A DNA stretch of 64,000 bases from assembly GCF_003790525.1 (NCBI RefSeq), contig NZ_CP033635.1; one strand, written 5' to 3'. The notes beneath the pieces are model-generated. The model saw only the letters and a program-made list of their open reading frames with translations. It made no database searches and had not been told where the DNA came from. The first letter of the stretch is position 1, and every line of letters starts with the position of its first letter. This document shows positions 9,556 to 9,947 of this stretch, piece after piece. This DNA comes from Escherichia coli. Its GTDB lineage: Bacteria; Pseudomonadota; Gammaproteobacteria; Enterobacterales; Enterobacteriaceae. The position numbers were made by a program, and so were the translations under genes.

Positions 9556-9724
9556 CGGGTCCTCCCGGTGGAGTGACCTGCCACGGGGCGGGAGCGTCGC
9601 GGAAAACGGCTGATTTTTGAATTTTCATGGGACACCACCACATCAATTAACATGCTGAAAAGTAAAATAAAAATTGATTTTCACCTGTCCCATTTTACTT
9701 TTTGTGGGACATCTGACCAGTTTT
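9556..9724 (+). other. cos site copy B; cosN-like 12-mer GGGCGGGAGCGT at 9586-9597
   Basis: Same architecture as copy A, including TTTTCACCTG (9678-9687) and GACCAGTTT. It starts immediately after a terminator, as copy A does. Confidence 0.7.
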
Positions 9725-9845
9725 TAACATTATGTTTTTAAAGAGAAAAATGATATTCGAGCTGGAGAACGATGCTGGTAGATAGTTAGTGATGAACAAA
9801 AAACAAGCAAAATCGACACCATAAAAATAAAACACATTGAATATC

Positions 9846-9947
9846 AATTTGTTGCAGTAGTGGTGATGACGAATAAAATTTCAAAAACTAGCCGTTTTCC
9901 GCGACGCTCCCGCCCCGTGGCAGGGCACCCCACAAGGAGGACCCGCC
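9846..9947 (-). other. cos site copy C (inverted, truncated); cosN-like 12-mer at 9904-9915 on the minus strand
   Basis: The reverse complement reads GGGTCCTCCTTGTGGGGTGCCCTGCCACGGGGCGGGAGCGTCGCGGAAAACGGCTAGTTTTTGAA. Its 12-mer is identical to that of copy B. Confidence 0.65.

What the first reader, a model, noticed from the sequence alone, without database searches (positions are those of the whole stretch)
9556..9947. Head-to-head inverted pair of identical cosN-like 12-mers flanking a 306-bp AT-rich spacer
Copy C (9846-9947) is the reverse complement of copy B through the cosQ-like block, the identical 12-mer GGGCGGGAGCGT and about 45 nt of the cosB side. The two cosB sides therefore face each other across an AT-rich spacer. 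The arms match almost perfectly over roughly 60 bp: GGGTCCTCC...CACGGGGCGGGAGCGTCGCGGAAAACGGCT. The inverted copy also supplies the AGGAGG Shine-Dalgarno of the next gene (9954). I know of no described satellite or phage with inverted cos sites. Possible roles are a terminase trap or decoy, a cruciform or invertible segment, or a way to package in either direction.
Basis: seen in the sequence. Interest (0 to 1): 0.75.

Follow-up and report, generated by a model that had tools for sequence, protein, structure and literature searches.

The report
Inverted cos packaging-site pair in PICI
The inverted repeat is real and consists of two phage DNA-packaging (cos) sites facing each other at the end of an E. 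coli phage satellite; the well-studied satellite EcCICFT073 has the same layout (its cos1 and cos2), so the layout is not new, but in related satellites the DNA between the two sites is found flipped.

Summary
Arms 9556-9641(+) and 9860-9945(-) match at 74 of 86 positions, with a 35-nt perfect core and identical 12-mers GGGCGGGAGCGT. The cosB sides face inward.

The window 163-11003 is a 10.8-kb EcCICFT073-family PICI, inserted at the same roxA/phoQ site as EcCICFT073. EcCICFT073's published cos1 and cos2 have the same head-to-head geometry, flanking rppA and lying upstream of the same last gene. So the claim that no such satellite has been described is wrong, although the papers I could read never mention the orientation.

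Of 84 non-redundant cos-type relatives, 64 carry the inverted pair: 40 with terS between the sites, 10 with rpp, and 14 with neither, as here.

The 306-nt spacer is two abutting cosB regions. C's cosB matches mEp460/phi458-type helper phages at 89-91%. B's cosB is PICI-specific and carries the GACACCACCAC motif also found in EcCICFT073 cos1.

New finding: in relatives the cos-bounded segment occurs in both orientations, including in two complete E. coli chromosomes. The junctions fall within about 25 bp around cosN.

Best reading: two packaging sites of opposite polarity, where C works directly with the helper and B is an Rpp/TerS-type site. The inverted layout prevents cross-termination and permits cos-bounded inversion or cassette exchange.

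Novelty: a new member of a known kind. Interest is moderate.

The parts
113..187 (+). attL-side repeat of the island (partner at 10929-11003)
   Evidence: 75-nt direct repeat, 79% identical, with an identical 25-nt 3' part. The island lies at the same place upstream of phoQ as EcCICFT073, which sits between roxA and phoQ (the window starts inside the island's left end, so roxA itself is not in it).
188..1438 (+). Tyrosine integrase of the PICI
   Evidence: Pfam Arm-DNA-bind_3 and Phage_integrase.
1813..2001 (+). AlpA-family regulator
   Evidence: Pfam Phage_AlpA, E = 5e-18.
4075..5481 (+). RepA-like helicase (replication module), followed by SSB at 6294-6704
   Evidence: Pfam AAA_25 and SSB.
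7019..7092 (+). cos-like copy A: cosQ 7019-7025, 12-mer GGGCGGGAGCAT 7048-7059, own cosB with an IHF consensus at 7111-7123
   Evidence: 82-nt direct repeat, 93% identical to B; pattern hit; IHF consensus. The same position is occupied in L001, L003, L010 and others.
7608..9524 (+). ClpP-like prohead protease / major capsid protein fusion gene, bracketed by copies A and B
   Evidence: NCBIfam NF045540, 907 bits; Pfam.
9532..9554 (+). Intrinsic terminator-like hairpin GGCGGCGATAGCCGCC followed by T7, abutting cosQ of B
   Evidence: Read from the sequence. The hairpin was also picked up by the scan, which reported it on the minus strand, and in the fold.
9556..9641 (+). Copy B, at the cos1 position: cosQ GGGTCCT 9557-9563, cosN-like 12-mer 9586-9597, start of cosB including GACACCACCAC 9631-9641
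   Evidence: GACACCACCAC also occurs in EcCICFT073 cos1 at the place proposed as the Rpp-binding R3-PICI (sequence; proposal in PMC9026076).
9598..9784 (+). cosB of B (PICI-specific type)
   Evidence: No phage match beyond cosQ/cosN. It is 96% identical to the cosB of copy A in L010 and 86% identical to the cosB at the C position of L009. It is nearly identical in L111.
9785..9903 (-). cosB of C (helper-phage type), with IHF consensus TATCAATTTGTTG at 9842-9854
   Evidence: Window 9785-9948 matches phi458, mEp460 and vB_EcoS-569R4 at 89-91%. It also matches the cos region directly upstream of the DUF1441 terS gene in prophage L002. IHF consensus.
9860..9945 (-). Copy C, at the cos2 position: cosN-like 12-mer 9904-9915, cosQ 9938-9944
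   Evidence: The same site lies 39-114 nt upstream of the ORF99 homologue in 64 relatives.
9969..10253 (+). Conserved last gene of the island (ORF99, phrog_1561, function unknown). The longest ORF starts at 9954.
   Evidence: 73-89% identical to the last gene of L001, L003, L004 and EcCICFT073. PHROG hit E = 2.6e-49. No Pfam or NCBIfam family.
10929..11003 (+). attR-side repeat

Best explanation
B and C are two lambda-type cos (DNA-packaging) sites of opposite polarity at the 3' end of a 10.8-kb EcCICFT073-family phage-inducible chromosomal island. They are the positional and sequence counterparts of EcCICFT073 cos1 (B) and cos2 (C). This much is shown by comparison.

The rest is inferred.
- After helper induction the island excises and replicates. 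Helper terminase nicks the 12-nt cosN and packages towards the cosB side.
- C carries a cosB like that of mEp460/phi458-type lambdoid phages (DUF1441 TerS, ClpP-MCP heads). Unmodified helper terminase can therefore use it, packaging leftwards through the capsid gene to int and ending at the next C.
- B carries a PICI-type cosB with the GACACCACCAC motif of EcCICFT073 cos1. In most relatives such a site is followed by the island's own rpp or terS gene. This island has neither, so B is either idle or needs a specificity factor supplied in trans.
- Lambda termination needs cosQ ahead of cosN. A site in inverted orientation therefore cannot end a packaging run begun at the other site, so every packaged molecule is a whole number of island units, whichever site is used.
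- A side effect of the geometry: cutting both sites frees a fragment with two identical cohesive ends, which can rejoin either way round or be swapped between elements. This would explain why relatives show the cos-bounded segment in both orientations and why mosaic junctions sit at cosN.
For: Homology and geometry:
- EcCICFT073 has cos sites at L007 19529(+) and 20339(-), flanking a 144-aa TerS-DBD-like ORF (rppA) and followed by the ORF99 homologue.
- The published 'CFT073 cos.1' and 'cos.2' sequences are these two sites.

Published function:
- Both sites promote transduction when cloned.
- Deleting cos1 lowers transfer, deleting cos2 raises it, and the double deletion abolishes it.
- RppA-TerS recognises the cosB of cos1.

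Conservation:
- 64 of 84 non-redundant cos-type loci have the head-to-head pair just upstream of the ORF99 homologue: 40 with terS, 10 with rpp, 14 with neither.
- L111 has the same 306-nt module on a different backbone.

Helper match:
- C plus its cosB is 89-91% identical to mEp460-type phages and to the prophage cos upstream of terS.
- The linear mEp460_4F5 record starts 5 nt before the predicted cosN.
- An IHF consensus lies in the cosB of C.

B's cosB is PICI-specific and carries the cos1 motif.

Inversion:
- The 512-nt segment is found in two orientations, 7 loci against 3.
- Complete chromosomes S1-CAM-02-A and STEC2018-607 have collinear flanks at 97.8% identity and a 600-nt inverted block at 98%.
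- Orientation states are interleaved among nearest relatives.
- The cosQ sides stay fixed and the cosB sides move, leaving about 25 bp around cosN for the junction.
Against: - No experiment exists for this cos type (GGGCGGGAGCGT). The 12-nt cohesive end is inferred from lambda.
- This island has no rpp or terS gene, so B may be non-functional.
- No helper prophage is present in the 64-kb window.
- In EcCICFT073, deleting cos2 raised transfer, so the C-type site may be a cost rather than the main site.
- 20 of 84 cos-type relatives lack the (-) site, for example L003 and L010.
- Segments containing terS or rpp (48 and 14 loci) are always in one orientation, so inversion is not free-running.
- No inverted form of the window's own 306-nt spacer was found. 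The only other copy, L111, has the same orientation.
- That an inverted cos site does not act as a terminator is recalled from the lambda literature and was not checked here.
Confidence: 0.68

Rival explanations
1. C is a decoy. It is a helper-type cos carried on a high-copy replicating island mainly to soak up or misdirect helper terminase (interference), not to package the island.
For: - C's cosB is helper-like.
- In EcCICFT073, deleting cos2 raised island transfer, so that site is not needed for transfer with lambda or phi80 and costs something, yet it is widely conserved.
- Convergent packaging from B and C would collide within 306 nt.
Against: - Cloned cos2 supports plasmid transduction, and only the double deletion abolishes EcCICFT073 transfer.
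- Interference in EcCICFT073 maps to rppA, not to a cos site.
- The window island has no other helper-type cos, so C is its most plausible means of packaging.
Confidence: 0.12
2. The pair has no function of its own. It is a scar of repeated recombination at cos between islands and helper phages, and the gene-less version is a remnant left after loss of rpp or terS.
For: - Strong mosaicism with junctions at cos: L111 against the window, L022 against L063, and mixed cosN types in L001 and L004.
- B's cosB type occurs at positions A, B or C in different islands.
- 20 of 84 relatives do without the (-) site.
Against: - The pair sits at a fixed position in 64 of 84 non-redundant loci across several cosN types, with cosQ, the 12-mer and the proximal cosB motifs intact in both members.
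- Gene-less modules recur with exact lengths (306, 388, 512 nt) on different backbones, which is not what decay produces.
Confidence: 0.12
3. The cos-flanked segment is a phase-variable switch. Flipping turns a promoter in the spacer towards or away from the last gene (ORF99).
For: - Both orientations of the gene-less segment exist in nature.
- An intrinsic terminator lies just before B, so ORF99 needs its own promoter.
- Weak sigma-70-like matches are present on both strands of the spacer.
Against: - The promoter matches are weak (9 of 12) in AT-rich DNA.
- No invertase gene is present.
- terS and rpp segments never flip.
- ORF99 is also present with no cos pair in cf-PICI-like islands.
Confidence: 0.05
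4. It is a MITE- or IS-like element with terminal inverted repeats, or a structural element (DNA cruciform or RNA hairpin), unrelated to packaging.
For: - 86-nt inverted arms enclose 218 nt.
- The RNA fold is -198.6 kcal/mol with z = -14.9.
- The arm sequence is multi-copy in E. coli genomes.
Against: - The arms are homologous to single, non-inverted phage cos sites lying upstream of terS.
- No target-site duplication is visible.
- All genomic copies examined are in prophages or PICIs.
- The strong fold follows trivially from any inverted repeat, and a terminator precedes B.
- A 218-nt loop disfavours cruciform extrusion (general knowledge).
Confidence: 0.02

Closest known systems
EcCICFT073 cos1/cos2 (Fillol-Salom et al. 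2018 ISME J, PMC6092414; 2019 Mol Cell, PMC6739421)
   Same: - Same island family and same chromosomal site (roxA/phoQ).
- Same order: capsid module, cos(+), cos(-), conserved last gene.
- Same head-to-head geometry.
- B shares the GACACCACCAC motif of cos1.
   Different: - A different cosN type (GGGCGGGAGCGT against GGGCGGCGACCT), which implies a different helper group (mEp460-like, DUF1441 TerS).
- No rppA or terS between the sites; only 306 nt made of two cosB regions.
- A third direct copy (A) upstream of a ClpP-MCP fusion gene, in place of lambda E/D-type capsid genes.
- The papers' text does not mention the orientation.
Bacteriophage lambda cos (cosQ-cosN-cosB)
   Same: - cosQ GGGTCCT at the same distance from cosN.
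- The 12-nt core shares GGGCGG.
- CGCGG follows the core.
- An IHF consensus lies in the cosB of C.
- In helper-type prophages the site sits directly upstream of terS.
   Different: - Lambda has one cos per genome.
- The R-site sequences differ.
- Cleavage at this 12-mer has not been shown.
cos-type SaPIs (SaPIbov5; SaPIbov4, which has two putative cos sites)
   Same: A satellite that carries helper-type cos sites instead of, or as well as, its own terminase subunit. SaPIbov4 is cited as also having two cos sites.
   Different: Gram-positive elements with HNH-dependent cos packaging and unrelated sequences. The relative orientation of the SaPIbov4 sites was not examined here.
Invertible DNA segments (Hin/Gin/Cin, fimS)
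   Same: A segment bounded by inverted repeats is found in both orientations in natural isolates.
   Different: No invertase or recombinase gene is associated. The repeats are terminase cleavage sites. The proposed agent is terminase cutting, or recombination stimulated by a break at cos; this is inference.

Membership tests
Gram-negative cos-type PICI (EcCICFT073 family) | Integrase at one end, flanking att repeats, size about 10-15 kb | tested here: met
   Integrase at 188-1438. att repeats at 113-187 and 10929-11003, giving about 10.8 kb. Same chromosomal position upstream of phoQ as EcCICFT073.
Gram-negative cos-type PICI (EcCICFT073 family) | AlpA regulator and own replication module (pri/rep plus ori) | tested here: met
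   AlpA at 1813-2001. AAA_25 RepA-like helicase at 4075-5481 and SSB at 6294-6704. Iterated repeats follow the helicase gene (family D5). ori function was not tested.
Gram-negative cos-type PICI (EcCICFT073 family) | Carries helper-like cosQ/cosN but lacks a full set of virion genes | tested here: met
   Three cos-like sites. Only one morphogenesis gene, the ClpP-MCP fusion, and no terL, portal or tail genes.
Gram-negative cos-type PICI (EcCICFT073 family) | Rpp (TerS-redirecting protein) or an own TerS next to cos1 | tested here: not met
   No rpp, Nu1-like or DUF1441 homologue anywhere in the window (tblastn). The longest ORF in the spacer is 50 aa. 14 of 64 paired relatives also lack it, so this is a sub-type, not an exclusion from the family.
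Gram-negative cos-type PICI (EcCICFT073 family) | Induction, packaging and high-frequency transfer by a helper phage | not testable with these tools
   Needs experiments. Candidate helpers by cos similarity are mEp460, phi458 and vB_EcoS-569R4.
Lambda-type cos site | cosQ heptamer about 20 nt upstream of a 12-nt cosN core | tested here: met
   GGGTCCT followed 22 nt later by GGGCGGGAGCGT in both B and C. This matches the published lambda, phi80 and CFT073 sequences.
Lambda-type cos site | cosB with TerS-binding and IHF sites between cosN and terS | tested here: inconclusive
   C's cosB is collinear with the helper cosB upstream of terS and has an IHF consensus. B has the GACACCACCAC motif but no IHF consensus. 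The binding sites for DUF1441-type TerS are unknown.
Lambda-type cos site | Staggered cleavage by terminase giving 12-nt cohesive ends | not testable with these tools
   The only indirect hint is that the linear mEp460_4F5 record begins 5 nt before the predicted 12-mer.
MITE / IS element | Terminal inverted repeats with a target-site duplication, and copies at unrelated loci | tested here: not met
   No duplication flanks 9556/9945. The genomic copies examined are cos sites of prophages or PICIs.
Recombinase-driven invertible segment | Adjacent invertase or recombinase gene, and both orientations present in populations | tested here: inconclusive
   Both orientations are found among relatives, but not for the window's own spacer. 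There is no invertase gene; the only recombinase is the island integrase.

The most novel reading that the evidence does not exclude
Head-to-head cos sites make the intervening DNA a terminase-delimited cassette. Cutting at both cosN sites releases a fragment with two identical cohesive ends, which can religate in either orientation or be exchanged between islands and helper phages. Phage terminase would then act in effect as the nuclease of a site-specific inversion and cassette-shuffling system that reassorts packaging-specificity modules (cosB, rpp, terS) among satellites.

The evidence does not exclude this. Inversion junctions are confined to about 25 bp around cosN, and identical spacers sit on unrelated flanks that join at cosN.

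The alternative is Red- or RecA-mediated recombination within the short identical core, possibly stimulated by the break at cos.
Probability: 0.3. Interest if true: 0.75.

Novelty: new member of a known kind. Interest (0 to 1): 0.5.

Why it matters
The locus itself is one more example of the two-cos architecture of E. coli PICIs. It has a different cos specificity and lacks the Rpp/TerS gene.

Three points go beyond the published accounts I could read:
- The two cos sites of this family, including EcCICFT073 cos1 and cos2, are inverted with their cosB sides facing. This offers a reason why a second site does not truncate packaged DNA, and a possible reason why deleting cos2 raised transfer.
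- The pair often combines different specificities, one helper-type and one PICI-type, or even two different cosN types. This suggests that one island can use more than one helper or terminase.
- The cos-bounded segment is found flipped and swapped among near-identical islands. This points to cos as a recombination joint that shuffles packaging modules.

All three can be tested directly with existing EcCICFT073 tools.

Tried and rejected
- A scan of genome contigs with the ORF99 alignment returned only one locus, from Shigella flexneri. It was not useful for the survey, so I used metagenome and IMG/VR loci instead.
- Two guesses at the position of EcCICFT073 in CFT073 were wrong before it was found next to phoQ.
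- No complete E. coli genome carries the exact window arrangement. The best hit covers 76% and has terS between the sites.
- The second apparent inversion (L015 and L023 against L093, with a terS-like gene) turned out to involve longer inverted duplications of the flanks. I do not count it as clean evidence.
- I rejected the MITE, cruciform and RNA-hairpin readings; the reasons are under the rival explanations.
- The cosQ-derived Shine-Dalgarno is judged unlikely.
- ORF99 has no Pfam or NCBIfam family, only phrog_1561 of unknown function.
- Literature searches for 'inverted' or 'opposite orientation' together with PICI or lambda cos sites found no text describing the geometry or an inversion. 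Figures are not held, and subscription papers are not searched, so this absence is not proof.
- The 53 loci with an ORF99 homologue but no lambda-type cos are cf-PICI-like islands (HNH-TerS-TerL) and were excluded from the denominator.

Full report
**Observation**

The inverted repeat is real. The repeat finder gives arms 9556-9641 and 9860-9945, 86 nt each, with 218 nt between them. A direct comparison gives 74 of 86 identical positions and a 35-nt perfect core starting at 9577.

The 12-mer GGGCGGGAGCGT is exact at 9586-9597 (+) and 9904-9915 (-). A one-mismatch copy lies at 7048-7059 (+). The composite pattern GGGTCCT-N(10-30)-GGGCGG occurs three times in the window (7019+, 9557+, 9944-) and never in 100 shuffles. 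The 306 nt between the two 12-mers are 34% G+C, against 48% for the window.

**Context**

The window 163-11003 is a phage satellite. Its parts are:
- att repeats at 113-187 and 10929-11003;
- a tyrosine integrase and AlpA;
- a RepA-like helicase and SSB;
- a ClpP-protease/major-capsid fusion gene at 7608-9524;
- a conserved 94-99-aa last gene (ORF99; phrog_1561, function unknown).

The host is E. coli: the phoQ-phoP-purB stretch is 100% identical to strain SMS-3-5 and others. The island lies directly upstream of phoQ, where EcCICFT073, the prototype Gram-negative PICI, sits between roxA and phoQ.

**Identity and polarity of the repeats**

Window 9785-9948, which is copy C plus 75 nt of 'spacer', matches the non-coding region directly upstream of the DUF1441 small-terminase gene of lambdoid prophages. 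It also matches phages phi458, mEp460 and vB_EcoS-569R4 at 89-91%. In those phages the order is cosQ-like block, 12-mer, AT-rich region, terS. This is the lambda order cosQ-cosN-cosB-Nu1, and the cosQ heptamer and the spacing match the published lambda, phi80 and CFT073 cos sequences. The linear record of mEp460_4F5 begins 5 nt before the predicted 12-mer.

Cleavage at this 12-mer has not been shown experimentally.

**The arrangement is not new**

In CFT073 the same pattern is found at L007 19529 (+) and 20339 (-). These two sites flank a 144-aa ORF whose N-terminus matches TerS DNA-binding domains. This ORF is most likely c1503/rppA. The pair lies 62 nt upstream of the ORF99 homologue, which is 73% identical.

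The supplement of Fillol-Salom et al. 2018 prints 'CFT073 cos.1' and 'cos.2', and they are the (+) and (-) sites respectively. EcCICFT073 cos1 and cos2 are therefore a head-to-head inverted pair.

Published experiments show the following:
- Each site promotes plasmid transduction when cloned.
- Deleting cos1 lowers island transfer.
- Deleting cos2 raises island transfer.
- The double deletion abolishes transfer.
- RppA-TerS recognises the cosB of cos1.

Neither those two papers nor the Murialdo and Feiss 2022 review mentions the orientation in its text.

**Survey**

I collected 160 loci with ORF99 homologues from metagenomes and IMG/VR and added E. coli loci. Among non-redundant loci with at least 1150 nt upstream:

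| Arrangement upstream of the ORF99 homologue | Loci |
|---|---|
| Head-to-head pair, Nu1-like terS between | 40 |
| Head-to-head pair, rpp between | 10 |
| Head-to-head pair, neither gene between (includes the window) | 14 |
| Only a (+) site | 19 |
| Only the (-) site | 1 |
| No lambda-type cos | 53 |

The 53 loci without a lambda-type cos are cf-PICI-like islands with HNH-TerS-TerL. The pair occurs with several cosN types. Some islands have mixed types, for example L001 and L004, where a lambda-type (+) site with its own terS is paired with a GGGCGGGAGCAT-type (-) site.

Gene-less pairs have discrete lengths of 306, 388, 435, 512 and 612 nt. L111 carries the same 306-nt module, about 99% identical from cosB of B onward, on a backbone with no capsid gene.

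**What the spacer is**

The spacer is two cosB regions placed end to end.

Window 9785-9903 is the helper-type cosB of C. It contains an IHF consensus at 9842-9854.

Window 9598 to about 9784 is the cosB of B:
- It has no phage match.
- It is 96% identical to the cosB of copy A in island L010, and 86% identical to the cosB at the C position of island L009.
- It carries GACACCACCAC at 9631-9641. This motif also occurs in EcCICFT073 cos1, in the interval that Murialdo and Feiss propose as the Rpp-binding R3-PICI.

The window has no rpp or terS homologue.

**Inversion in relatives**

The 512-nt gene-less segment occurs in both orientations relative to the fixed flanks. Seven loci have one orientation and three have the other, with identical coordinates. 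The cosQ sides stay with the flanks and the cosB sides swap. This leaves only GTTACG, the 12-mer and CGCG, about 25 bp, for the junctions.

Both junction types exist in complete E. coli genomes. Chromosomes S1-CAM-02-A and STEC2018-607 carry islands at the same yejO-adjacent site. Their flanks are collinear at 97.8% identity, and a 600-nt block is inverted at 98% identity.

Orientation states are interleaved among nearest relatives:
- L172 (orientation B) is closest to L137 (orientation A).
- L022 (orientation B) has a spacer 99.6% identical to that of L063 (orientation A), but an unrelated left flank.

This implies more than one event, and cassette exchange as well as inversion.

Segments that contain terS or rpp (48 and 14 loci) are always co-oriented with the operon. 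A second apparent case (L015 and L023 against L093) involves longer inverted duplications and is not clean. No flipped version of the window's own spacer was found. The two junctions that a flip would create do exist in relatives: cosQ of C joined to B-type cosB in L009, and cosQ of B joined to helper-type cosB in L003.

**Mechanism (inferred)**

Helper terminase binds cosB, nicks cosN, and packages towards the cosB side. C should work with unmodified mEp460-type terminase. B looks like an Rpp/TerS-dependent site that lacks its partner gene in this island.

Lambda termination requires cosQ ahead of cosN. I recall this from the work of Cue, Wieczorek and Feiss and did not check it here. If it holds, an inverted site cannot terminate a run started at the other site, so the packaged DNA stays a whole number of island units.

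Cutting both sites would free a fragment with two identical cohesive ends, which can rejoin in either orientation. This fits the junction mapping. Alternatively, recombination within the short identical core, stimulated by the break at cos, gives the same products.

The rise in transfer after cos2 deletion in EcCICFT073 fits competition or collision between convergent sites. It leaves open a decoy role.

**Rejected readings**

- MITE or IS element: there is no target duplication, and every copy examined is a cos site in a prophage or PICI.
- Cruciform: the 218-nt loop is too long.
- RNA hairpin: the strong fold follows trivially from the inverted repeat, and an intrinsic terminator at 9532-9554 precedes B.
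- Assembly artefact: the arrangement recurs in many independent assemblies, including complete genomes.

**Verdict**

The locus is a new member of a known kind: the EcCICFT073-type dual cos site, here in a gene-less version with a different cos specificity.

The added value is the explicit inverted geometry, the assignment of helper-type and PICI-type cosB to the two sites, and the comparative evidence for inversion and exchange at cos. That last point deserves an experiment.

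Noticed in passing
window 7019-7092 (+); also L001 6721, L003 6722, L010, L020, L040, L096, L098, L105: A third cos-like copy (A), 93% identical to B over 82 nt, with 12-mer GGGCGGGAGCAT. It forms a direct repeat with B, and the two bracket the small ORF 7402-7611 and the ClpP-MCP gene. Many EcCICFT073-like islands also have a cos-like (+) site about 550 nt upstream of their lambda-E-type capsid gene. 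The morphogenesis module therefore looks cos-bracketed too.
   Followed up: partly
window 9532-9554: An intrinsic terminator-like hairpin (GGCGGCGATAGCCGCC plus T7) ends the capsid gene transcript directly against cosQ of B. L111 has a different hairpin at the same place.
   Followed up: no
window 9954-9974; L001 10213-10250: A tandem ATGACC hexamer at the start of ORF99 varies in copy number between islands (2 in the window, 4 in L001). This shifts the distance between cos(-) and the start codon from 39 up to 114 nt.
   Followed up: no
L029, L106, L114, L149 (about -3000 to 0 relative to the ORF99 homologue): The ORF99 family (phrog_1561) is also the last gene of cf-PICI-like islands, directly after the HNH endonuclease, TerS and TerL. 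It is thus a conserved terminal gene of two different PICI classes, with unknown function.
   Followed up: partly
L001 9258-9304; L004 8213; L001 10202; L004 9157: Some islands combine a lambda-type or hybrid cos(+) (12-mers GGGCGGCGACCT or GGGCGGCAGACG) and their own Nu1-like terS with a GGGCGGGAGCAT-type cos(-). That is two different cohesive-end types in one island, which suggests use of two helper groups.
   Followed up: partly
window 7141-7150, 7218-7227, 9678-9687: The motif TTTTCACCTG is repeated in the cosB of A (twice) and of B (once). It is a candidate protein-binding repeat of the PICI-type cosB (family D3).
   Followed up: no
window 10386-10429 and 10798-10841; IHF consensus at 10470, 10524, 11044: A 44-nt direct repeat (89% identical) and several IHF-consensus sites lie in the 750-nt non-coding stretch between ORF99 and attR. 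This may be the attP arm region, or a remnant of an earlier insertion.
   Followed up: no
L111 (IMG/VR UViG_2778261085_000011) 90-4297: A minimal island: RepA-like helicase, SSB, a ProQ/FinO-domain protein and PerC, followed directly by the same 306-nt inverted cos module and ORF99, with no capsid gene.
   Followed up: partly
NZ_CP172217.1 (E. coli GF4), 5149632 and 1063395: One complete genome carries two islands with the 512-nt-type module, one matching each junction orientation.
   Followed up: no
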